From a phage: a stretch of 64,000 bases of DNA. The stretch's first letter is position 1; every line of letters starts with the position of its first letter. Below, in pieces: positions 1 through 30,859 of the stretch. The notes beneath the pieces are model-generated. The model made no database searches. It was not told the DNA's origin and saw only the letters and a program-made list of their open reading frames with translations. A program made the translations under genes and the position numbers. The stretch lies in sequence record PZ379177.1. One strand, 5' to 3'.

Positions 1-66
1 TTGCGCTGAATTGATGAATTTCATAAGTAACGCCAAACAAGTCAATTACTTTATTCTTTCTCATAT

Positions 67-939
67 TTATGCCGATGGTGCAACGCCGCCCGTCACCGTA
101 AATATATCATCACGACTTGCTAAATCATATTCAAGTTGCATGATGACAAATGTGGTGTCGTTCAAGCTTGGGTTTAAGACTGATTTGAATTTAACACCTT
201 GTGCAAGCTTCAAATCTGCGTTATACATACAAGTAAAGTCTGCACCCCACTCGTTCCACATCGGTATTCCGACAAATTCCTCAATGACCGTAATCTGGTC
301 TGGATTTAGAATTTTGTCTTTATCCTTGGCAATTAACGTATCGTCATCAATGTATGCCGCGATGGAGTTGCGTTGATAGTTCTGGATCTCAAGCAGCAGC
401 GCAGCAGCGACATATGTCGTTCTTCCTGGATTCACAAGTCGCTGATTGTTAATCGACGTATCACAAATAACAGTATCGATGTCCATTTGTTTTGCAGACC
501 ATTCCACAAACTCTTTGAAAGTCGGGTTGGATGGCGCAGCTTGAGTGATGAACTTAGTTCTGTTTATTTGGTTGGTGTAGCAAGTGATTCTGATGACAAT
601 ATTCGGCGGCGGCGCTGTTATCTCAACTGTCGTCACCTGTCCCTTGTATACCAAGTTGCTGCTGATTACATTCCCTTCTCTGTATCCAGCTTCAATAGTC
701 ACGTTGACGTAGTTCGCCGCCAGCTGGCCTTGATCACGCAGACGTTTGTTGAATGCCGTGAAGTTGGAAAGCAGGTACTCTCTCAAGTACCCTGTTAATC
801 CTGCGACTTCAATCGTGGCCTTATTCTGAACGGAAAGTGCTGCCTTTTTGATTCGGCATCTAAGCATCAATCCTTCGTCAAGCACTTGGCTTGTGCCATC
901 CGGCATGGATAAGGTGACTTTAAGGATTCTCTTTTTCAA
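67..939 (-). CDS. hypothetical tail/baseplate protein, immediately downstream of the tape-measure-like gene
   Basis: 290-aa ORF, 4-nt gap to upstream gene, position in tail module; no motif recognised. Confidence 0.4.
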   Translation of the reverse strand: MKKRILKVTLSMPDGTSQVLDEGLMLRCRIKKAALSVQNKATIEVAGLTGYLREYLLSNFTAFNKRLRDQGQLAANYVNVTIEAGYREGNVISSNLVYKGQVTTVEITAPPPNIVIRITCYTNQINRTKFITQAAPSNPTFKEFVEWSAKQMDIDTVICDTSINNQRLVNPGRTTYVAAALLLEIQNYQRNSIAAYIDDDTLIAKDKDKILNPDQITVIEEFVGIPMWNEWGADFTCMYNADLKLAQGVKFKSVLNPSLNDTTFVIMQLEYDLASRDDIFTVTGGVAPSA

Positions 940-943
940 ATGA

Positions 944-3124
944 TCACCACTTCAAAGGTGTAGCAGTAAGGTTGTTTATGTCGTTGATATCATCTTGTTC
1001 AAGCACGCGCTTAGTCTCAATAGCCGTGCTTCGTGGGTCTTGAGCGCCGTTGACGTTGATGACAACGTTTTTCTGACCCATAGTGATATCACGCCCACCA
1101 GGTCGACTATTCGCGGAGAGGTCGCCGCCGTATTTCTGGAACGCCTCAAGCTGGAATGCCGCAAGACGAGCATTCTTCATCGCTTCGGCCTGAATGTTCG
1201 GTCTTACGCCTGGAGTTGAAGCCAGCTGCATGTTTTTAATATAATCCCTTTGCGTTCCAAGTTTAAGGTAAGTTTGAGCAAAGTCAATATCACCTTTGTT
1301 AACTTGCCCTTGCATCAGCTGCTCAACTGGCACGTTTAGGTATCCTGCAATGGCTTCTTGCAACTGTCTGTATTGCACCGTTTGGCGGGATTGGCCTTGT
1401 ACTGGTGCATAGCTTCCTTTCGGCGCTTCTGCTCCGCTGCCGCTAAGAACTGGAGTAACTGGTGCACCTTGCGGCGCTCCTGTGGCGTATTCTCCATTCG
1501 CCTGTCGGTCGAGAGCAGCCATCACCTTGCCAGGATATGCACGGGTGTTCTTTCCCCATCCGCTGCGGTCATATCCACCGTGATACATAGTCAGGGCAAG
1601 ATTCCAATCGCCATTGGCAGCGGTTAAATATTCCTTGAGAAGTTGAGCGCCGCCCATAATGTTTTGTCTTGGGTCGTTACCGTCTGTAATGCCAAGTCCC
1701 TTGAAGTTGGAAGGCATTATTTGCATCAATCCGGTCGCGCCTGCTCCGCTCACAGCGTTAGGGTTGAATCCAGATTCGACTTCTGTGACGGCCTTCATCA
1801 TCGCAACAGGGATTCCATAACGCTTGGAGGCTTCCTCATAGATTGAGTCATATGCAGTCGGATTTCCTGACCCCAAGTTGTTGCCTACGGTCGCACCAGT
1901 GCTTAGTGCTGGCGTGCCAGGCATTGCGGATTGGCCTGCGCTTCGTCCTATCTCACCAGCCCATGCAGCCCACGCTTGTCGCTCATCAATAACACCAGCA
2001 AAGGTTGAAACGGCGCTTGAAAACAGGTTTATATCGCGAGTGAAAAGTGCTTGCGCAGAACGTTGTTCAGCCGCGTTTTGCTCCTGGTTCCTCTGGCGTT
2101 TCACATCGCCGTCAGCCATCTGAGTTATCCATCTATCAACGGCACGCTCGTGACGCTCGTTAACAGCCGCCTGTTTATCGAACGGGTGTTTCAAATCAGC
2201 GATGAAATTGTCGACAAATTCAGACCATCCATCAGACATCCTTTGGAACATCATCTGGAATCCTTCGACTGTATCGGCGGTCTTGCTGACAAGCATCGAG
2301 AATGCAGGCATCACGTTCTCACCGATTACCAGTTCAATGCGTCGCCAGTCTTCTTGAATTTGGCCCATGCTGTTTCGTATCGTTTCAAGCGCAGCCTGCT
2401 GTCTTTGCAGCTTCGCCGTTTCTTCGTCGCTTATACGGGTGCTTTCTTTGACTGATTGATTTCGCTCACGAAGCGCACGGACTTCATCGGCGGTAAAACC
2501 TGCCAGAGCACCAATAGCACGAGCGGTTTGCTCATTCACACTTCTCAGCTTTGTGCCAATTTCATCAAGCAGCTGGTTTGTGTCTTTGATGCCGCCGTTA
2601 CTGTTGAAAGGACTGGTCCCCATCTTGTTCAGAAGCAAGTTATCCTTGTTCATCACATCGGGGTTGGTGTATGCGTTAAATGCGAGATTAGAAGCCTTGC
2701 TGATTAAATCCCTTGACCCTTGCGCACCAAGAACTCCGCCTGAACTTTCATTCAATTGTCGCTGTAGTTGCTCCACTCCGATTGGTGAAAGCCCTGCTTC
2801 AAATCCAAGCTTCCTTTGCGCTTCATATTCTTTTCGAACATCAACGATTGATTTAACGACAACAGCCAATCCTGCAACAACAGGAACGAGCGCGGCGAAG
2901 CGATAAGTAAGCCGCGCAAGGATTCCGTCAATAGACCCCAGTTCAGCTGTGAGAGGCTTCAACTCACCAAACACATCTTTGAATGCTCCGGTGAAGTCTT
3001 TACCAGCGGACTTTGCCTTTTTGTTTGTCTGATCAACCTTATCTTGCAATTGCTCAAGACGATTGATGGACTCTTTCAAGTCCACCGTATATTGAAGCAC
3101 AAATTTTTCTAATGAGTCAGACAC
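944..3124 (-). CDS. tail tape-measure-like / tail lysin protein with C-terminal soluble lytic transglycosylase (SLT) domain
   Basis: 726 aa; coiled-coil N-terminus, hydrophobic segment ALVPVVAGLAVVV, SLT-like motif VTEVESGFNPNAVSGAGATGLMQIMP near C-terminus. Confidence 0.65.
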   Translation of the reverse strand: MSDSLEKFVLQYTVDLKESINRLEQLQDKVDQTNKKAKSAGKDFTGAFKDVFGELKPLTAELGSIDGILARLTYRFAALVPVVAGLAVVVKSIVDVRKEYEAQRKLGFEAGLSPIGVEQLQRQLNESSGGVLGAQGSRDLISKASNLAFNAYTNPDVMNKDNLLLNKMGTSPFNSNGGIKDTNQLLDEIGTKLRSVNEQTARAIGALAGFTADEVRALRERNQSVKESTRISDEETAKLQRQQAALETIRNSMGQIQEDWRRIELVIGENVMPAFSMLVSKTADTVEGFQMMFQRMSDGWSEFVDNFIADLKHPFDKQAAVNERHERAVDRWITQMADGDVKRQRNQEQNAAEQRSAQALFTRDINLFSSAVSTFAGVIDERQAWAAWAGEIGRSAGQSAMPGTPALSTGATVGNNLGSGNPTAYDSIYEEASKRYGIPVAMMKAVTEVESGFNPNAVSGAGATGLMQIMPSNFKGLGITDGNDPRQNIMGGAQLLKEYLTAANGDWNLALTMYHGGYDRSGWGKNTRAYPGKVMAALDRQANGEYATGAPQGAPVTPVLSGSGAEAPKGSYAPVQGQSRQTVQYRQLQEAIAGYLNVPVEQLMQGQVNKGDIDFAQTYLKLGTQRDYIKNMQLASTPGVRPNIQAEAMKNARLAAFQLEAFQKYGGDLSANSRPGGRDITMGQKNVVINVNGAQDPRSTAIETKRVLEQDDINDINNLTATPLKW

Positions 3125-3127
3125 AGT

Positions 3128-3544
3128 TTACCCCTTGTTTGGAGTCTCGCCGCTGAGGAATGGCGCGATTAATCGCATCGATTCGCCGATGAATGCTGCA
3201 GCCATTTCGCCGCCAGCTTGTTCCCAGTAGCCTTCACGCTCGGCGTGAGTATCTGGGTTTATACCGTTCTCCATGAGGACTGCTTCGAAGACTTCTTTAA
3301 GGTTTTCCCAGTCACCAAGATGGTTGTCAATTAGTGCACCAGTGCTTAATGGGATTTCTTGGCCCACATCAAGCTCGACTTTTGCGAAGCTCAACACTTC
3401 CATCGTATACTCTGAACGAAACGCAGGGTCCTTCGACATTGCAAATTCGACAAAGCGACGCTGAATATTCCAGCCTTCCATCGCAGTCATTTTGCTGATT
3501 TTGATTTCTACTGTACGACCAGTTTGTTTGTTGGTGATCTTCAT
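3128..3544 (-). CDS. hypothetical protein (possible tail assembly chaperone by position)
   Basis: 138-aa ORF tightly packed upstream of tape-measure-like gene. Confidence 0.4.
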   Translation of the reverse strand: MKITNKQTGRTVEIKISKMTAMEGWNIQRRFVEFAMSKDPAFRSEYTMEVLSFAKVELDVGQEIPLSTGALIDNHLGDWENLKEVFEAVLMENGINPDTHAEREGYWEQAGGEMAAAFIGESMRLIAPFLSGETPNKG

Positions 3545-3545
3545 T

Positions 3546-4106
3546 TTATATTCCTACTGTTGATTTTATTTTATTATATAACGAACTCACAGTTGTAGTC
3601 AAACTGACTGGTTCTTTAATAGCAACACCATTTGATGATTCGTCTGCAGATTGTTTAGGGTCGAAGCTTCCTTGAATGCTAAATGACGTTTGCTCGAAAG
3701 TTATTACTATTGAGACTCCATTCAAGTTTTCTTCTGACTGGGTTATTTCAACGTCGGACATCGACATTTTACTGGCAATGATGCTTCGAGAAGTTATTGA
3801 AAATGTGACTTCGTCATCATCAAATGAATTTATGATATTTTCAATTGTAGACTGGTCATTGCAAATTACGTTTAACGCCATATGGGCTGGCATTACAACC
3901 TTTGCCGCCTGTAAATTGCTTACTGATGACGTGCTTGATACTTCGACAACCTGCATGGCTGTACCAGCAAGAGGGAATTGAGTTGTTTCTGCTGGGGATG
4001 TTATTTCTGCAGAAACAGGTGAAAGCCTTGTCCAGACAGGAAGACCTGTTGACTCATTCGTTATGGTCAAAGATTGACCAGAAAGCAGAATCGAAACGAA
4101 GTCCAT
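3546..4106 (-). CDS. hypothetical tail-module protein
   Basis: 186-aa ORF, 1-nt gap to neighbour, same strand operon. Confidence 0.4.
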   Translation of the reverse strand: MDFVSILLSGQSLTITNESTGLPVWTRLSPVSAEITSPAETTQFPLAGTAMQVVEVSSTSSVSNLQAAKVVMPAHMALNVICNDQSTIENIINSFDDDEVTFSITSRSIIASKMSMSDVEITQSEENLNGVSIVITFEQTSFSIQGSFDPKQSADESSNGVAIKEPVSLTTTVSSLYNKIKSTVGI

Positions 4107-13848: not shown

Positions 13849-13958
13849 CCACCCTCAAATAAGTATTGTGTATTATATCTAATGAAAAAAACTTAGGCAA
13901 ACAATAATTATGGTTTGAATATGTATAACAACCGATATAGCCGCGCCTTAATTAGTGT

Positions 13959-14221
13959 GATACGGATGATACGGATAAAATGAGGCGTATTTTTATCCGT
14001 ATCGGTGTATAAGCCGCGCTATCACTGGTGTGCTACGGATGATACGGATGATACGGATACTTTTCATATATAAGAGTTTATAAAAAAAATAAAATTAAAT
14101 TAGATATATAATTTTAAATTAATTTATTTGAATTCCTATAAAGTATCGCGGCAACGCGTATCATCCGTATCATCCGTAAGATTCTTTTGAAAACAACTAC
14201 TTACTTGATACGGATGATACG
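13959..14221. repeat. complex regulatory repeat module copy 1: inverted arrays of 9-bp GATACGGAT units flanking an AT-rich core
   Basis: GATACGGATGATACGGATA at 13959 and 14041, ATCCGTATC in opposite orientation at about 13995 and 14156-14184; core 14060-14150 is >85% AT. Confidence 0.6.
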
Positions 14222-25248: not shown

Positions 25249-25644
25249 ATGATCATCGATATTGAAAAGGCGCTTAAGCGTGAACTGACACCAGGCGCAA
25301 CTCCTGGTGAAGAAGCCTACTACCGACCAAAGTCGCAACGCACCAATGATATTCCGGTCGCCAAGCGTACAGTGAATAAAAACGGTCAGCGGTCGCGACC
25401 GCGCTCTATCCGGTCCGGTGAGAAGCTGAAAACGATTCGTCAGTGTCTACAACGCCTCGAAATCATGGGTTGTCGCGCTTATATCGACCCTGATGGAAAG
25501 GTTCTGGTGAGAATTGGCAATAGTACACAACTACAAGACGGATTGCCCTGCGGCGAATCCAGACCCATAGCCAAGACCGACCGTGTAGCTACTGGCCGCG
25601 AGATTGAGGAAAGTTGGTTGGGTGCTTTCTTATTAAAATATTGA
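25249..25644 (+). CDS. hypothetical protein
   Basis: 131-aa basic ORF. Confidence 0.4.
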   Translation: MIIDIEKALKRELTPGATPGEEAYYRPKSQRTNDIPVAKRTVNKNGQRSRPRSIRSGEKLKTIRQCLQRLEIMGCRAYIDPDGKVLVRIGNSTQLQDGLPCGESRPIAKTDRVATGREIEESWLGAFLLKY

Positions 25645-25651
25645 GGATTAT

Positions 25652-25849
25652 GTGAATCAAAATGAATCAGTAGCATTCTTACAATGGCTGGAAGGTGTGG
25701 TGGAGTATTACGCTCCAAAAGACCGCTTCATCTTTCAAGGAAAAAGTTACAAGCGCAAAGGGCAGGCCCAGAAAGCAGCGCGTAAGTACTGGAAGGAAGT
25801 TTATTCAGAGTTCTTTCAGCAGATGGGCAGCACAGTTGGTATCGATTGA
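25652..25849 (+). CDS. hypothetical protein
   Basis: 65-aa ORF. Confidence 0.4.
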   Translation: MNQNESVAFLQWLEGVVEYYAPKDRFIFQGKSYKRKGQAQKAARKYWKEVYSEFFQQMGSTVGID

Positions 25850-25944
25850 TGAATGTTGATTTCGTGATGTTTTTGATCATATTGGCGATAAGTTCAGTAT
25901 TTGTTGTCGCTATGATCGCGCTTATTGATTGGTTGGATAAATAA
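25849..25944 (+). CDS. small hydrophobic protein (31 aa), not in ORF track
   Basis: ATG shares its A with the upstream TGA stop; product MNVDFVMFLIILAISSVFVVAMIALIDWLDK is a single transmembrane helix. Confidence 0.3.
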   Translation: MNVDFVMFLIILAISSVFVVAMIALIDWLDK

Positions 25945-26602
25945 ATCGTGGTTTTGGTGATTTTGGTGATTTAACCGTGAATCGTGGGTCGCTGTGGCGG
26001 CCCTTTCTTTTGCCTGCCGCGCAGGAGTGTACTGCAAATTTACTGTGGGCACAAAATAGTACGGTACTGTCCAGGACTTTTTCTTTGAAAAGTTAGTGGA
26101 CCAAATGTGTCGTATTTTGATTAGTGTACTGCAAATTCCATCAAGTAGCAAAACGCACCAAAAGACCCATGCCATAAAAACCACACGAACGCAATAATCA
26201 ATCGCCGTTACAGTTTCCAGCGTTACAATTCGAAAGCGAATGATTCGATGCATAATAATATGAAGCATAATGATTCGAAAGCTAATGATTGCGTGTAGGA
26301 TAATATCGGTGGGGATTATTCTAGATGCATGTAATTTCGCATGCGTACTATTTTCGGACGAAGGGTCGGCATATTCCTCGTTTTAGTTCGGAACGAAGGG
26401 AAAGTTTTGCGCCTTTATAAAACAATGACTTACGCGACCCGCCCTAACGGTCCGATATAGGTGTCTATATAAAACAAGGACTTACGCGATGTTCTCCATT
26501 TAACGTAATACCCGTTATGCGAACTAAGGCGCATCTCGACGAAGATTATGCGACGACGAAGGGAAGGATAAAGGAGTTTTCGCGGAGAAGCGCATCGAGA
26601 TA

Positions 26603-26634
26603 GGGACGAAGAAAAGCCGCGACTAAGCGCGGCC
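26603..26634 (-). terminator. rho-independent terminator closing the leftward arm of the atypical cassette
   Basis: minus-strand hairpin GCCGCGCTTAGTCGCGGC followed by TTTTCTTCG, about 20 nt after the 26654 stop. Confidence 0.4.
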
Positions 26635-26653
26635 TATTAGTAACGGAAGGGTA

Positions 26654-26944
26654 TTATAAGGAAACGATTTTAAAGAAAGAGTAACGGCCTTCGCCTTCGG
26701 ATACCGCGAGATATTCGCCGCCGAACTCCGTAGCAAAATAAACCTTGCCTTCGATAGTAACGCGGAAGGTAGAAATATCTTCCTCTTCGAGTTCCGTAAA
26801 TTCGCTAAAATCGATAGGACTATGAAGCTCCTCGATAGTCGCATCTACGTTAAAGAGATAAACGTTTTTAAGTTTTTCGCCAAATACGTTAGAGTTTTCG
26901 GAAGTTTCGGCGCGAGCGTTACGGATAGCGGCTAAAGTAATCAT
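26654..26944 (-). CDS. hypothetical small acidic protein (cassette gene 1)
   Basis: 96 aa; AGGAGATTATTATG initiation context; CG-rich codon usage unlike flanking phage genes. Confidence 0.55.
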   Translation of the reverse strand: MITLAAIRNARAETSENSNVFGEKLKNVYLFNVDATIEELHSPIDFSEFTELEEEDISTFRVTIEGKVYFATEFGGEYLAVSEGEGRYSFFKIVSL

Positions 26945-27045
26945 AATAATCTCCTAGTTGGGTCGGGAGGGTAGCGACCTATTCGCTACCTCATCCCCTC
27001 TCGATATAAAACATTATAGTCTTAGTGTACGAAGAAGTAAAGCAC
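26945..27045 (-). promoter_or_regulatory. sigma70-type promoter plus structured 5' UTR for cassette gene 1
   Basis: minus strand TTTACT-N17-TATAAT, then hairpin GGTAGCGA-ATAGG-TCGCTACC, then AGGAG RBS. Confidence 0.5.
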
Positions 27046-27052
27046 TTTTTCA

Positions 27053-27355
27053 TTATTCTGCGATAAAATATTTATAAGCTTTATCGCCTTCTACGTCGAT
27101 ATACTCGACGATAATTAACGCTTCGCCGCGAGGCGTAACCGTCTCGATAAGGGTAACGGCTTCGTCGTCGGTCTTCGCGAAGCGGATGGCGCTACGTTCG
27201 GCATACTTCATATCGTCGAAGGAAAGGCCGATGAAGGCGACCGCGCGGACCTTAATGGCGCTAGATTCTAGTTCCGCGTTAACGGCGGCGATAAGAGAGC
27301 GAACAGTTAAGCGGTCTTCGTCGTAAGTAAGGATGGAAGAGATTAAAGTAGTCAT
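27053..27355 (-). CDS. hypothetical small acidic protein (cassette gene 2)
   Basis: ORF trimmed to MTTLISS start with GGGAGCTTTATTATG context; same atypical codon style. Confidence 0.55.
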   Translation of the reverse strand: MTTLISSILTYDEDRLTVRSLIAAVNAELESSAIKVRAVAFIGLSFDDMKYAERSAIRFAKTDDEAVTLIETVTPRGEALIIVEYIDVEGDKAYKYFIAE

Positions 27356-27396
27356 AATAAAGCTCCCGATGCTAGTAGAAGAAAGGGCCATCGCCC

Positions 27397-27579
27397 GTCT
27401 CGATATAAACAAGTATACGCGAGTGTACGAAGAAGTAAAGAAAAAAGATAAAATAATTTATCGCATTTTTATCTAAAAAGTGCTTTACTTTTTTCTACAC
27501 TATATTATAATGTACTCATATCGGGACGGGATGAGTTAACGAATAGGTCGTTAACGCCTCTCCCAACTAGGAGTTTATT
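27397..27579. promoter_or_regulatory. divergent promoter pair with central palindromic operator and structured 5' UTR
   Basis: leftward TTTACT-N16-TATACT; rightward TTTACT-N16-TATAAT; between them AGATAAAA-N13-TTTTATCT; rightward UTR hairpin GTTAACGA-ATAGG-TCGTTAAC then AGGAG RBS. Confidence 0.5.
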
Positions 27580-27894
27580 ATGGCTATCGTTACCCGCTTT
27601 ACCCTCGAAAACGCAACCGCCGAAGTCCAGGGCGTTACGCTTACTTACGGCGAAATTCTCGCTAAATTCTCCGGCGTTCGCTTAGGCGAAGAAATTAACG
27701 ACGCGACGGTAATCGAGCAACTCGCTGCTTCTCGCTTAGAGCGCGACGAAAACGGATTCTTCGAAGTCGATGCGGAATTAAATTTATGCGGTAAAACGGC
27801 GTTTATTAACGAGTTCGAACTCGCCGTTTTAGTTAATTACGATAGCAAAGCTTACGCCTTCGCCCTCGAATTAATCGAAGACGACGAAGAGTAA
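27580..27894 (+). CDS. hypothetical small acidic protein (cassette gene 3)
   Basis: 104 aa, acidic C-terminus IEDDEE; AGGAGTTTATTATG context. Confidence 0.6.
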   Translation: MAIVTRFTLENATAEVQGVTLTYGEILAKFSGVRLGEEINDATVIEQLAASRLERDENGFFEVDAELNLCGKTAFINEFELAVLVNYDSKAYAFALELIEDDEE

Positions 27895-27974
27895 GAGAGG
27901 ATTTTTAGAGCGTCGTGCGCGGCGCTTTAATAAAATTCTTTCGCGCCTAGCGCCCTAACAAATAGGAGTTTATT

Positions 27975-28601
27975 ATGGTTAGCTTAAATCGCTTTTCTAC
28001 TAGCGGCGACGTTATCGCAACTAAGACCGCCGACCTCGTTGCATTCTATAATGCAAATTCCGGCTCAAAACCGATTAAGAAGTTTGCGGACCGCCGGACC
28101 GCCGAGACTCGCGTAATCGCGTTAATCGAGTCCTTAAACGCGCTCGATGCGCCGTCCAACGAGTCGCCCATCCCCGACGCGAAGGCGCGCGAGGAAGTGT
28201 CCAGCGATGTAAAAACTCATAAGGCGCGTGCGGTCGTTAAAAAGGCTGAGCCGACCCAGGAAGAACTCGACGCGATGACCGACGAAGAATATGAAGCCTT
28301 CGTTAAGAGCGGTTTAAATGATAGTGCAAATTGCGTAGTGCAAAATGGAACTCCTTCCCATCGCCGTTCGAATAGCGAAGGTATTGCAAAAAGCTGGGAT
28401 AATAAGGAAGTGGCGCAAAAGCGTCTCACCCGTAACGGTGTCATGGTCGAGGGTGTAGGCGAGTTCAAATCGGTCCGCGTAGCGTTCGCTGCGCTGGGAT
28501 TACCGGATAGCAAGCACATTCGCTTCCGCATGAAGCTTAAGGAAGCTGGGCGCTTGAACTTCGAGTTCGGCAACAAGTCCTACACCTTCCAGATTATCTA
28601 A
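27975..28601 (+). CDS. hypothetical protein (cassette gene 4)
   Basis: 208 aa; identical AGGAGTTTATTATG context; contains two ATAGTGCAAAT-type motif copies in its coding sequence. Confidence 0.6.
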   Translation: MVSLNRFSTSGDVIATKTADLVAFYNANSGSKPIKKFADRRTAETRVIALIESLNALDAPSNESPIPDAKAREEVSSDVKTHKARAVVKKAEPTQEELDAMTDEEYEAFVKSGLNDSANCVVQNGTPSHRRSNSEGIAKSWDNKEVAQKRLTRNGVMVEGVGEFKSVRVAFAALGLPDSKHIRFRMKLKEAGRLNFEFGNKSYTFQII

Positions 28602-28607
28602 TAGAAT

Positions 28608-28631
28608 GGCGGCCCTTCGGGGTCGCTTTTC
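28608..28631 (+). terminator. rho-independent terminator closing the rightward arm of the cassette
   Basis: hairpin GGCGGCCC-TTCG-GGGTCGC followed by TTTT, 7 nt after the 28601 stop. Confidence 0.4.
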
Positions 28632-28651
28632 ATAGTGCAAATTGGTGGCTT

Positions 28652-28915
28652 ATGAATACGCTCATTCTCATCGCTACGTTATCCATCGGAAGTGGTCGCA
28701 CCTTATCCCTTTACGACCATAGTGCAAATTGCGCTTATCCTACGCGCGTTGCGGCGATAGTTAATAGTGCAAATAAGATGCTATTCGAGACTTGCTGGCG
28801 GGTCGATAACGAGAAAGGTCGGGTAGTCTTAGGTTATAGTGCAAATCTGCTGGTGGAGTCGTTCGATTGGACGGTTGAAGGTCGTAAATTGTTACGGAAA
28901 GTGACTAAAAGATGA
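28652..28915 (+). CDS. questionable ORF (87 aa) carrying three in-frame copies of the 11-mer
   Basis: weak RBS; motif copies read as HSANCA, NSANKM, YSANLL; may be a repeat region rather than a gene. Confidence 0.25.
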   Translation: MNTLILIATLSIGSGRTLSLYDHSANCAYPTRVAAIVNSANKMLFETCWRVDNEKGRVVLGYSANLLVESFDWTVEGRKLLRKVTKR

Positions 28916-28976
28916 CTTATAATAATACACTTTCTAACGCGTTTATGGTTGTAACCTTCCCCGTCGTATTACCGAT

Positions 28977-29016
28977 GGCCCTAGAAGTGGAGAAAATGTG
29001 TTCTAGGGCCGTTTTA
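28977..29016 (+). terminator. rho-independent terminator
   Basis: perfect 10-bp inverted repeat GGCCCTAGAA...TTCTAGGGCC followed by GTTTTA. Confidence 0.5.
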
Positions 29017-29029
29017 TAGTGCAAATTGG

Positions 29030-29503
29030 CTAGTGGCGGGAGAATTGCTCACCTTCTTTGGCCGCCTCTCCAAAATCCTTGTAGAAATCGTCCATGGAAC
29101 GGCCCATTTTACTATTGCCGTTTTCATCAATCATCGTGATGCCGTAGATGATATTCAGTTCACGAATAGCATTAAGTTTGGCTGACGCCGCGACTTCTGG
29201 ATCACGCACAAGCTTGACCAAATTGTGAATTGCACCTTTTACGCTCCACAAATCCTTGAGTGGCATCTCTTCCATACGCTTTTTGAAGCGCATCTTGTAG
29301 TATGGATTGCGTTGCGCGCAAAGGATTCGCTGGCCAGTGTAGTTATCCGTTGCAACTTCCATTCCAAATACTAGTGCAAAAGCTGCGCGCATGTCATGGC
29401 CCTGAATAACAAGGTCAATGAACTCATCGAATAAAGCCTGATTGTGCTCTGCAAATCGCGGGTCTTCAAAGTCTTCAGGCATCGCTACATAATCTTGACT
29501 CAT
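29030..29503 (-). CDS. hypothetical protein (speculatively terminase small subunit-like)
   Basis: 157 aa with normal phage codon style; no clear SD; both candidate ATGs lie inside copies of the 11-mer (read as TTTGCACTATG on the coding strand). Confidence 0.45.
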   Translation of the reverse strand: MSQDYVAMPEDFEDPRFAEHNQALFDEFIDLVIQGHDMRAAFALVFGMEVATDNYTGQRILCAQRNPYYKMRFKKRMEEMPLKDLWSVKGAIHNLVKLVRDPEVAASAKLNAIRELNIIYGITMIDENGNSKMGRSMDDFYKDFGEAAKEGEQFSRH

Positions 29504-29654
29504 AGTGCAAAATCCCATAGTGCAAATTAATAGTGTGAATTATACAATGGATGGACATTATATTCAAGTGCAGATTGATGTTCATTATGGCTATAAACGT
29601 ACACAAATCATAGTGCTGAATGGATAACGGACCGTGGTGCGTGGTGTACTGTTT

Positions 29655-30004
29655 GATACGGATAAAAGAAATCCATCCCTTTCGCCGCTTGTTATGCAAA
29701 TCAATGACTTAGCCGCTGCTGGCTGGTTTAAGCGTATCATGACGTATCATCCGTATTGCCGCAAGTCTTTGTTTTTACTTATATCTTACGGATAATACGT
29801 TAAATATATAAATTAACATAAGTATGAGGATGTAGAAAAAAAATTAATTTAAATTAATTCAAAATGGAGTTAATTAATTTTTGAAATAATTCTGGTTACA
29901 ATAAGGAAAAATGGCGTATCATCCGTATCATCCGTAAGATTCAGTGTACAAATCCAGGCGCGGCGCACCCTAGCGCCATGATACGGATAAAAACCTATCC
30001 GTAA
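29655..30004. repeat. complex regulatory repeat module copy 2 (GATACGGAT units flanking an AT-rich core)
   Basis: 29-bp block GCGTATCATCCGTATCATCCGTAAGATTC identical to 14156-14184; GATACGGATAAAA at 29655 and 29980; AT-rich core 29800-29900. Confidence 0.6.
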
Positions 30005-30319
30005 GAGTGTACGCTTCAATTAAAGAATCCAGGCGCGGCGCGGCTTTCACCACCACACACCACGGTTCACTCTCCAAAATCCGCACACTAAATTCCAAAA
30101 TCCAATGCTCATACTCCAAAAATAAATCCAAATTTCCATTTTATTTATTATTTTCATCCACAATATACTAAATTCTATCCGTATTAACCACGACTCAACC
30201 CACCACGATTCATGCCAATCACTTCAAAATTTCCATCGAAAACGACAAAAGGCCGCGTAAAGCGACCAATTGCACACATTCCATTATTCAAAACACGTAA
30301 ACGAGTGTTCTTTTATCCA

Positions 30320-30859
30320 CTATAATTTAGGCATCAATCCCTTTTCCGTTCTCCTTTTTATCTCGTCTTCTATCATTTTATTGGTCACTCTATAGCCAAT
30401 CCTTTCCAATTCCATTAATACTTCCTTTTGGTATTTTCTTATTTTCACAATGTCAACCGTATCCCTCCAATAAGATAATACCTTCTTAATGACTGACTTT
30501 TCCATTTTATATCTGGCGGTAGTCATATACTTCATTTTAAAAATAGAGTTGATCGCATCAGTCTTTAACCATTCCTTTCTTAATTCAGGATGATCATTCC
30601 AAAGAGTAATGGCGAACTCCTGCGGACTTTTGCACCTGCTTTGAAGCTCCTTTATATAGTCAGCCGTTTTTACTTTTCTATCTAAACGCGCGCGGCAAAC
30701 GGTGCACTCTTCCTTGAGCAACCAATCGGCCTTCTTATCAATTTGCAAAGTTGAATTGCCATCCCTTTTATACCTGCCGCAAAAGCTTATGCCTTCATCT
30801 TTTAAGAAGTAATGCAACTCTTTAGAGTATTTCGCTTTACGCCAAAAGCCTCCCATCAC
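30320..30859 (-). CDS. hypothetical protein
   Basis: 179-aa basic ORF. Confidence 0.45.
   Translation of the reverse strand: MMGGFWRKAKYSKELHYFLKDEGISFCGRYKRDGNSTLQIDKKADWLLKEECTVCRARLDRKVKTADYIKELQSRCKSPQEFAITLWNDHPELRKEWLKTDAINSIFKMKYMTTARYKMEKSVIKKVLSYWRDTVDIVKIRKYQKEVLMELERIGYRVTNKMIEDEIKRRTEKGLMPKL

What the first reader, a model, noticed from the sequence alone, without database searches (positions are those of the whole stretch)
26026..26137. Duplicated 15-mer AGTGTACTGCAAATT related to the 11-mer family
Two exact copies lie 97 bp apart in the non-coding stretch after the rightward tail-fibre block. The 15-mer shares TGCAAATT with the ATAGTGCAAAT array 2 kb downstream and AGTGTAC with the cassette promoters (AGTGTACGAAG). 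It may be a related regulatory site that links these elements.
Basis: seen in the sequence. Interest (0 to 1): 0.35.

Follow-up and report, generated by a model that had tools for sequence, protein, structure and literature searches.

The report
Repeat pair beside phage genome end
Two identical 15-base words sit just outside the exact point where this E. coli phage's 3.7-kb terminal repeat ends, in every relative examined, so they are most likely part of the DNA signal that tells the packaging enzyme where to cut the genome; this function is inferred, not shown.

Summary
AGTGTACTGCAAATT occurs exactly twice in 64 kb, at 26026 and 26123 on the + strand, in DNA that is truly non-coding. This is far more than chance would give.

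The window is a Wifcevirus (E. coli myovirus, WFC/WFH/Mansfield group) with a direct terminal repeat (DTR) of about 3.7 kb. Four independent records place one physical genome end at window 26160|26161. That is 23 nt after the second copy.

In 19 genomes and 4 metagenomic contigs the copies sit at -135/-134 and -38 from that border. They lie in a roughly 600-bp zone between convergent terminators.

Neither copy resembles a sigma-70 promoter, and no Rfam family matches. The "cassette promoters" are sigma-70-type promoters that read on the opposite strand. There AGTGTAC is only spacer sequence, so that link looks like coincidence.

The link to the TAGTGCAAAT family is plausible but marginal. That family is a DTR-only array on the + strand around the small-terminase gene. 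A matrix built from it ranks the 15-mers 13th and 14th of 128,000 positions.

Best reading (confidence about 0.45): the pair is a protein-binding signal that helps define the inner DTR border during concatemer cutting. This is a new member of a known kind and of moderate interest.

The parts
26026..26040 (+). 15-mer copy 1 (distal), AGTGTACTGCAAATT; starts 135 nt before the first DTR base
   Evidence: Present at -135/-134 in 19 of 19 genomes. It carries single substitutions in Bas99 and WFC (T8 to G) and in ECO71P1 (C10 to A).
26123..26137 (+). 15-mer copy 2 (proximal), AGTGTACTGCAAATT; ends 23 nt before the DTR border
   Evidence: Present at -38 in 19 of 19 genomes. T8 is C in Bas98, Bas101 and TH32. 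The metagenomic contigs agree.
26093..26107 (+). Possible degenerate third copy, TTAGTGGACCAAATG (compare TTAGTGTACTGCAAAT); weak
   Evidence: family D3. The site is conserved in the alignment. Whether it is a real member was not tested.
25986..26011 (+). Intrinsic terminator that ends the rightward tail-fibre operon (GGGTCGCTGTGGCGGCCC followed by TTTCTTTT)
   Evidence: Annotated as a terminator in WFH.
26160..26161 (.). Inner border of the direct terminal repeat, a physical genome end (...AAACGCACCA|AAAGACCCATGCC)
   Evidence: Mansfield PhageTerm DTR 1..3673. WFH's two DTR copies are 3701 bp with 0 mismatches. The Ro157lw and SP13 records end at the same base.
26161..29865 (.). Direct terminal repeat (3705 bp, a single copy in this window)
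   Evidence: Korf et al. 2019 report a terminal repeat of about 3.7 kb.
26614..26635 (-). Intrinsic terminator of the leftward DTR genes; with 25986-26011 it encloses a roughly 600-bp zone that is probably not transcribed and that holds the pair and the border
   Evidence: Annotated as a terminator in Mansfield and WFH.
28322..29527 (+). Array of 10 TAGTGCAA(A/T) sites, all on the + strand and found only in the DTR; possibly the same recognition family as the 15-mers
   Evidence: Relatives have 7-10 copies per genome, always on the + strand.
29030..29518 (-). Small terminase (TerS) gene inside the DTR; the candidate binder
   Evidence: PDB 7uxe 'Small terminase', E = 6e-34. Annotated as TerS in Mansfield.
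29865..29866 (.). Far border of the DTR, the other physical genome end (...TTAATTCAAAAT|GGAGTTAATT), in an A/T-rich core

Best explanation
The two 15-mers are sequence-specific protein-binding sites that form part of the cis signal marking the inner border of the phage's long direct terminal repeat.

The proposed mechanism has three steps:
- In replicated concatemers a DNA-binding factor occupies the two sites. The factor is most likely the small terminase or a terminase-associated protein.
- The sites lie 23 and 120 nt beyond the cut point, on the unique-sequence side.
- The bound factor positions or triggers the large terminase to cut precisely at 26160|26161. This produces the genome end that carries the second copy of the repeat.

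Shown here:
- the pair exists;
- the stretch is non-coding and probably untranscribed;
- the pair is fixed in position relative to the border;
- the border is precise.

Inferred:
- the sites are bound by a protein;
- the binder is terminase;
- binding sets the cut.
For: Four independent determinations put a genome terminus at the same base, 23 nt after copy 2. These are the Mansfield PhageTerm annotation, the WFH duplicated ends and the record ends of Ro157lw and SP13. Ro157lw was also called by PhageTerm (PMC6454146).

The pair sits at -135/-134 and -38 from that border in 19 of 19 genomes and 4 of 4 metagenomic contigs. AGTGTAC is invariant in all 38 GenBank/IMG copies.

The interval 26000-26200 has mean pairwise identity 0.95-0.99. 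That is as high as or higher than the coding DTR sequence, whereas DNA left of the terminator is variable.

The two copies are identical but embedded in unrelated flanks, which is the pattern expected of binding sites and not of a duplication.

Several results argue against an RNA or promoter role and for a DNA-level role:
- the pair lies between convergent terminators;
- no sigma-70-like promoter is found at either copy;
- no Rfam family matches;
- the single-stranded fold is unremarkable (z = -0.79);
- the phage encodes no RNA polymerase or sigma factor.

The 15-mers are the best matches in the genome to the TAGTGCAAAT array outside the array's own span and its two degenerate DTR copies (ranks 13-14 of 127,962). 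That array is DTR-only, on one strand, and overlaps the start of the TerS gene. This placement resembles known TerS recognition sites such as lambda cosB R sites and the P22 and SPP1 pac sites, as summarised in PMC9611059.
Against: - No binding, cleavage or mutational data exist.
- The whole 175-bp block is conserved. The 15-mers (3 of 30 columns variable) are not clearly more conserved than their neighbours (about 16 of 105 variable; counted).
- All available relatives are close, so conservation has little power.
- The WFC record places the border 83 bp further out, between the two copies.
- The flank outside the other border shows no counterpart. It is hypervariable, and its AGTGTAC pair is not conserved.
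- The homologous TerS of phage E217 showed no appreciable DNA binding in vitro (PMC9611059).
- Membership of the array family is marginal.
Confidence: 0.45

Rival explanations
1. The pair is an operator or insulator site for a transcription factor. A phage or host DNA-binding protein would bind the 15-mers, and perhaps the TAGTGCAAAT array and the GTACACT promoter spacers, to regulate or shield early DTR genes from late read-through.
For: - The DTR holds strong sigma-70-type early promoters whose spacers contain GTACACT.
- Two array sites sit in the 5' leader and start of the TerS gene, just downstream of its promoters.
- A DTR-encoded 208-aa protein has a C-terminal helix-turn-helix plus beta-hairpin in a confident model with pLDDT 84.8.
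Against: - The pair is not next to any promoter or gene start. It lies after a good terminator and before 450 nt of further non-coding DNA.
- Only 7 nt are shared with the promoters, on the antisense strand, and the third promoter lacks the heptamer.
- The array sites share one orientation regardless of gene direction.
Confidence: 0.15
2. The repeat has no function of its own. It would be a chance or historical repeat preserved only because all known Wifceviruses are recent relatives and the block is constrained for some other reason.
For: - All relatives are 92-99% identical here, and no relative with intermediate divergence exists.
- The 15-mers are not significantly better conserved than the sequence between them.
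Against: - An exact 15-nt repeat at short range is expected about 0.01 times per window.
- The copies have unrelated flanks.
- Their position next to a precise genome end, and their resemblance to a strand-specific DTR array, would both have to be coincidences.
- Neighbouring non-coding DNA at 26200-26350 and the flank beyond the far border do diverge.
Confidence: 0.18
3. The pair is an injection or genome-entry signal, analogous to the conserved repeat-rich untranslated region at the inner end of the phage T5 terminal repeat (iss). The sites would pause DNA entry after the terminal repeat has entered, or anchor the DNA.
For: - The architecture is similar: a long DTR carrying small early genes with strong host-type promoters, and a conserved, repeat-rich untranslated zone of about 600 bp straddling the inner DTR end.
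- T5 is described this way in bioRxiv 10.1101/866236.
- Ro157lw was classed as 'T5-like long DTR'.
Against: - No DnaA boxes occur anywhere in or near the DTR.
- No A1/A2-like proteins were detected.
- The 15-mers lie outside the repeat, whereas the T5 iss lies inside it.
- Two-step transfer has never been reported for this genus. One study reports a 3-5 minute cycle (PMC11990801), which leaves little time for a pause.
Confidence: 0.08
4. The pair belongs to a replication-origin or iteron system. The 15-mers and the TAGTGCAAAT array would be iterons for a DTR-encoded initiator such as the 208-aa protein, like lambda iterons inside gene O.
For: - The repeats share one orientation and lie partly inside and next to the 208-aa gene.
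- The phage uses an RSF1010 RepB-type primase, which acts at specific sites.
Against: - The pair is 2.2 kb from the array, with no A/T-rich unwinding element beside it (GC 0.39-0.45).
- The 208-aa protein matches no initiator family.
- The A/T-rich, inverted-repeat-flanked cores lie elsewhere, at 29800-29900 and 14050-14150.
Confidence: 0.07

Closest known systems
Lambda cos architecture (cosQ-cosN-cosB, with R sites bound by the small terminase gpNu1)
   Same: - Short repeated recognition words lie beside a precise terminase cut site.
- TerS-type sites cluster at or inside the start of the TerS gene, as the array does here.
- Signals on both sides of the cut are used for initiation and termination.
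   Different: - Lambda makes 12-nt cohesive ends, not a 3.7-kb repeat.
- R sites are close to the cut, whereas the array here lies 340-1545 bp from the far end and the 15-mers flank the other border.
- No IHF consensus lies near the pair.
- Binding is untested here.
T7/T3 concatemer-junction processing signals (short-DTR phages)
   Same: - The terminal repeat is exact and not permuted.
- Both borders must be recognised in a sequence-specific way.
- The repeat must be duplicated during maturation.
   Different: - The T7 repeat is 160 bp, and its processing is coupled to phage RNA polymerase transcription across the junction.
- This phage has no RNA polymerase of its own, and the pair lies between terminators.
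- No sequence similarity was tested or expected.
Phage T5 untranslated repeat region 3 / injection stop signal at the inner end of the long terminal repeat
   Same: - The DTR is long and carries early genes.
- A highly conserved, repeat-rich untranslated zone straddles the inner DTR end, beside variable coding DNA (bioRxiv 10.1101/866236, compared).
   Different: - The T5 region is defined by paired DnaA boxes and large inverted repeats inside the repeat.
- Here there are no DnaA boxes, no A1/A2 homologues were detected, and the 15-mers lie outside the repeat.
pac sites of SPP1, P22 and Sf6 (TerS recognition within or next to the terS gene)
   Same: - The TAGTGCAAAT array overlaps the terS start and its neighbouring genes.
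- The large terminase is SPP1-like according to the Mansfield annotation.
   Different: - Those phages package by the headful mechanism, giving imprecise, permuted ends.
- Wifceviruses have exact ends.

Membership tests
Terminal-repeat border / terminase recognition signal (cos- or pac-type cis element) | Lies next to a precise physical genome end | tested here: met
   Copy 2 ends 23 nt from the border. The border was fixed by four independent records and PhageTerm was used for two of them.
Terminal-repeat border / terminase recognition signal (cos- or pac-type cis element) | Position relative to the end is conserved among relatives | tested here: met
   Offsets of -135/-134 and -38 in 19 of 19 genomes and 4 of 4 metagenomic contigs. 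All relatives are close, so the power of this test is limited.
Terminal-repeat border / terminase recognition signal (cos- or pac-type cis element) | Bound by terminase and required for cutting or packaging | not testable with these tools
   This needs a gel shift or footprint and mutant phage with termini mapping.
TAGTGCAAAT array family of the DTR | Matches the array consensus clearly above background | tested here: inconclusive
   The array-only matrix gives ranks 13-14 of 127,962 with scores of 11.1 and 10.9. Background hits score 10.8 and 10.6, and true members score 15.7-25.4. The 15-mers have C at the invariant G.
TAGTGCAAAT array family of the DTR | Same strand and confined to the terminal-repeat region | tested here: met
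   All members and both 15-mers are on the + strand within 26030-29527. There are none on the - strand and no core copies elsewhere.
Sigma-70-type promoter (the 'cassette promoter' family) | -35 and -10 hexamers at 16-18 nt spacing, on the strand that reads into a gene | tested here: not met
   There is no promoter-like hit at either 15-mer on either strand. The cassette promoters read on the strand opposite to AGTGTAC.
T5-type injection stop region | Paired DnaA boxes and large inverted repeats inside the terminal repeat | tested here: not met
   No TTWTNCACA site lies between 23768 and 48727, and the pair lies outside the repeat.
Known structured RNA | Match to an Rfam covariance model, or unusually stable folding | tested here: not met
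   No Rfam hit with E up to 1 in 25500-30500. Fold z-score is -0.79.

The most novel reading that the evidence does not exclude
The 15-mers and the TAGTGCAAAT array are one recognition code read by the decameric small terminase of the Wifcevirus/Pbunavirus lineage. The array inside the repeat would load terminase for initiation near the far end, and the two variant sites just past the inner border would act as the stop-and-cut mark. This would be a two-part signal explaining how an exact 3.7-kb terminal repeat is measured. It would be the first defined TerS recognition sequence for this family and a concrete model for long-DTR formation, whose mechanism one of the papers read here describes as unknown (PMC6454146).
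Probability: 0.2. Interest if true: 0.7.

Novelty: new member of a known kind. Interest (0 to 1): 0.4.

Why it matters
How phages with long exact terminal repeats define and duplicate those repeats is poorly understood. PMC6454146, citing Casjens and Gilcrease, states that the mechanism for long repeats is unknown.

No recognition site is known for the small terminase of the Pbunavirus/Wifcevirus lineage, which includes widely used therapeutic Pseudomonas phages.

A conserved pair of identical words 23 nt from a precisely mapped end gives a small, specific target for mutagenesis and binding assays. The phage group can now be grown on E. coli K-12 derivatives (BASEL Bas98-101).

If the sites do nothing, the result is still useful. 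It shows that the finding is a terminal-repeat border feature and not a promoter family.

Tried and rejected
- **Promoter reading.** The sigma-70 scan found nothing at the pair. It also showed that the cassette promoters read on the opposite strand.
- **Structured RNA.** Rfam found nothing and the fold was unremarkable.
- **Coding.** The - strand ORF is not conserved.
- **Symmetry between the two DTR borders.** Local alignment of the two flanks was no better than shuffles. The AGTGTAC pair beyond the far border is absent from most relatives.
- **Deeper evolutionary test.**
  - TerS-based recruitment from GenBank phages, IMG/VR and metagenomes gave only relatives at 96% identity or more, or at 41% or less.
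  - Two distant relatives, Salmonella PCSE1 and Serratia Spe5P4, showed no comparable array, and their termini are unknown.
  - The 15-mer scan of IMG/VR mostly returned single chance hits.
- **Identifying the binder.**
  - Pfam and PHROGs were uninformative for all DTR ORFs.
  - The single-sequence model of the 208-aa protein failed (pLDDT 38).
  - The alignment-based model was confident, but its fold matches were not significant.
- **Host-factor sites.** There are no DnaA boxes near the DTR and no IHF consensus near the pair.
- **Target-site duplication of an insert, or a recombination site.** Rejected by inspection: the 82-nt interval has no terminal inverted repeats, no relative has an empty site, and no recombinase is annotated.

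Full report
**Observation.** The 15-mer AGTGTACTGCAAATT occurs at 26026-26040 and 26123-26137 on the + strand. These are the only two sites in the 64-kb window with up to two mismatches on either strand, against 0.19 expected. An exact 15-nt direct repeat within 150 nt is expected about 0.009 times per window analytically and arose in 2 of 120 Markov simulations. Only four loci in the window show one.

The repeat is exactly 15 nt and its flanks are unrelated. The stretch is non-coding. The mechanical 124-aa ORF on the - strand is truncated or lacks a start in most relatives, and curated records annotate no gene there.

**What the window is.** Megablast identifies a Wifcevirus, an Escherichia/Shigella myovirus of the WFC, WFH, ECML-117 and Mansfield group, at 91-95% identity. 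The genus is described as having a terminal repeat of about 3.7 kb (Korf et al. 2019, PMC6563267). It is distantly related to Pbunavirus (PMC11990801). The curated Mansfield map shows no phage RNA polymerase or sigma factor. It also shows a small terminase gene far from the large terminase gene.

**The key context: the pair abuts a genome end.**
- Mansfield carries a PhageTerm-predicted direct terminal repeat (DTR) at record positions 1..3673.
- The WFH record holds both DTR copies, 3701 bp with no mismatch.
- The Ro157lw and SP13 records end at the same base. Ro157lw was called by PhageTerm as a non-permuted, long, T5-like DTR (PMC6454146).
- All four map to ...AAACGCACCA|AAAGACCCATGCC, which is window 26160|26161. 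Copy 2 therefore ends 23 nt from a physical genome end, on the unique-sequence side.
- Only the WFC record differs. Its recorded repeat ends 83 bp further out, between the two copies.
- The other border is at 29865|29866. The window therefore holds one collapsed DTR copy, 26161-29865.

**Conservation.** In 19 genomes the copies lie at -135 (or -134 after a 1-nt deletion) and -38 from the first DTR base. AGTGTAC is invariant in all 38 copies. Six copies carry one substitution, five of them at position 8. Four metagenomic contigs recruited through TerS, not through the motif, show the same arrangement.

Mean pairwise identity is 0.95-0.99 for 26000-26200. It is lower to the left of the terminator and at 26200-26350, and only 0.2-0.6 outside the far border. 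Within the conserved 175-bp block the 15-mers are not clearly better conserved than their surroundings. No relative of intermediate divergence exists: TerS is either at least 96% or at most 41% identical. Conservation therefore supports a constrained block, not the 15-mers specifically.

**Surroundings.** A good intrinsic terminator ends the tail-fibre operon at 25986-26011. A - strand terminator at 26635-26614 ends the leftward DTR genes (annotated). The pair and the border thus lie in a roughly 600-bp zone between convergent terminators.

No sigma-70-like promoter is found at either copy. No Rfam family matches at E up to 1. The single strand does not fold unusually. These results favour a DNA-level role over a transcriptional or RNA role.

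**The cassette promoters.** The scan finds TTTACT-16/17-TATAAT(TATACT) promoters at 27041..27013 (-), 27439..27412 (-) and 27484..27511 (+). Each lies just upstream of a small gene. AGTGTACGAAG is the reverse complement of their spacer. The third copy has CTACACT. The shared heptamer is therefore antisense spacer sequence. By my estimate, a 7-mer shared between a 15-mer and an 80-nt element has a chance probability of about 0.08. I regard this link as unsupported.

**The 11-mer array.**
- TAGTGCAA occurs 10 times, all on the + strand and all at 28322-29518, with no copy elsewhere in 64 kb.
- TGCAAAT is 12:0 for + versus - strand within 25950-30250.
- The array lies in the far third of the DTR, across two small genes and the start of the 162-aa gene.
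- That 162-aa gene is a small terminase by sequence (PDB 7uxe, E = 6e-34).
- Relatives keep 7-10 copies, always on the + strand, and the intergenic copies are invariant.
- A matrix built from these 10 sites ranks the two 15-mers 13th and 14th of 127,962 positions. They are the best hits outside the array's own span and its two degenerate DTR copies, but only marginally above background: 11.1 and 10.9 against 10.8 and 10.6, while true members score 15.7 or more.

The kinship is therefore plausible on strand, location and the shared TGCAAATT, but it is not established.

**Mechanism.** An exact, non-permuted DTR requires sequence-specific recognition of both borders in concatemers. This follows from established knowledge of T7-type maturation. 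For long repeats the mechanism is said to be unknown.

The best-supported reading is that a protein binds the two identical words and marks where the large terminase cuts, 23 nt away. The small terminase is the obvious candidate, because TerS sites commonly lie in or by the terS gene (PMC9611059) and the array resembles the 15-mers. Binding and its consequence are inferred, not shown.

Points against this reading:
- the WFC border discrepancy;
- the lack of any counterpart at the other border;
- the reported lack of in vitro DNA binding by the homologous E217 TerS.

**Rivals.**
- *An operator for a DTR-encoded regulator.* This is possible. The 208-aa protein has many remote relatives (835 representatives). 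Its confident model ends in a helix-turn-helix plus beta-hairpin, but the fold matches are not significant.
- *A T5-like injection-stop role.* This fits the architecture but fails the DnaA-box test, and the pair lies outside the repeat.
- *An origin or iteron role.* This lacks an adjacent A/T-rich element.
- *No function.* This cannot be excluded given the shallow phylogeny.

**Verdict.** The pair is a conserved feature of the terminal-repeat border and a testable candidate for a terminus-defining signal. It is a new member of a known kind, of moderate interest.

Noticed in passing
window 13950-14200 and 29780-29945: Two loci share one architecture. Each has an A/T-rich core with AAAAAAAAT..TTAAATTAATT-type runs, flanked by inverted TACGGATGATACGGAT and CGTATCATCCGTATCATCCGTAAGATTC repeats. 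The 28-mer at 14158-14185 is identical to 29915-29942. The far DTR border lies inside the second core. ATCCGTAWG gives 4 hits against 0.74 expected. These may be sites for one protein at two loci, origin-like or regulatory.
   Followed up: partly
window 28322-29527: The TAGTGCAAAT array itself has 10 copies on one strand, found only in the DTR, partly inside coding sequence. It overlaps the leader and start of the small-terminase gene. The two invariant intergenic copies (28632, 29016) each directly follow a + strand terminator. It is a candidate TerS recognition (pac/cosB-like) array and appears to be undescribed.
   Followed up: partly
window 26942-27050, 27343-27440, 27475-27582: Three copies of a roughly 80-100-nt cassette (sigma-70-type promoter, leader, ribosome-binding site and ATG), two on the - strand and one on the + strand. 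Each drives a different small DTR gene. Two of the promoters face away from each other across 27412-27511.
   Followed up: partly
window 26161-26620: The inner 460 bp of the DTR is non-coding, conserved and packed with other short repeats: AATGATTCGAAAGC-type units at 26219-26306, a 25-mer CTWTATAAAACAAKGACTTACGCGA at 26413 and 26465, and ACGAAGGG words. Their function is unknown.
   Followed up: no
window 28849-28856 (also 7671, 13001, 40693, 42060): The Chi octamer GCTGGTGG occurs 5 times against 1.34 expected (1 of 100 shuffles reaches 5). The DTR copy is about 1 kb from the far end. By my inference it is oriented to be active for RecBCD entering from that end.
   Followed up: no
window 29866-30300: The flank just outside the far DTR border is hypervariable among otherwise 92-99% identical genomes (identity 0.2-0.6). 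It keeps recurring ATCCGTAAG...TGTAC...CCAGGCGCGGCG units. A GC-skew turn lies at about 29.9 kb.
   Followed up: partly
window 27975-28601: The 208-aa DTR protein (phrog_4730) belongs to a large uncharacterised family, with 835 representatives at 50% clustering. The family has conserved N- and C-terminal modules and no Pfam or PDB match. The model has pLDDT 84.8, with a possible winged-helix C-terminus.
   Followed up: partly
L005/L006 (WFC record MK373777.1): The terminal repeat recorded for WFC (3784 bp) ends 83 bp further out than in WFH, Mansfield, Ro157lw and SP13, inside the palindrome ACTTTTTCTTTGAAAAGT between the two 15-mers. This is either an imprecise call or a real difference in a genome whose copy 1 carries T8G.
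   Followed up: no
window 29699-29711: The only IHF-consensus site in the DTR region (AATCAATGACTTA) overlaps a TGCAAAT word and lies 155 bp inside the far genome end.
   Followed up: no
window 17805 and 17949: Another exact 15-nt short-range direct repeat, AATATTCTGGGTCAT, with copies 144 nt apart. It was not examined.
   Followed up: no
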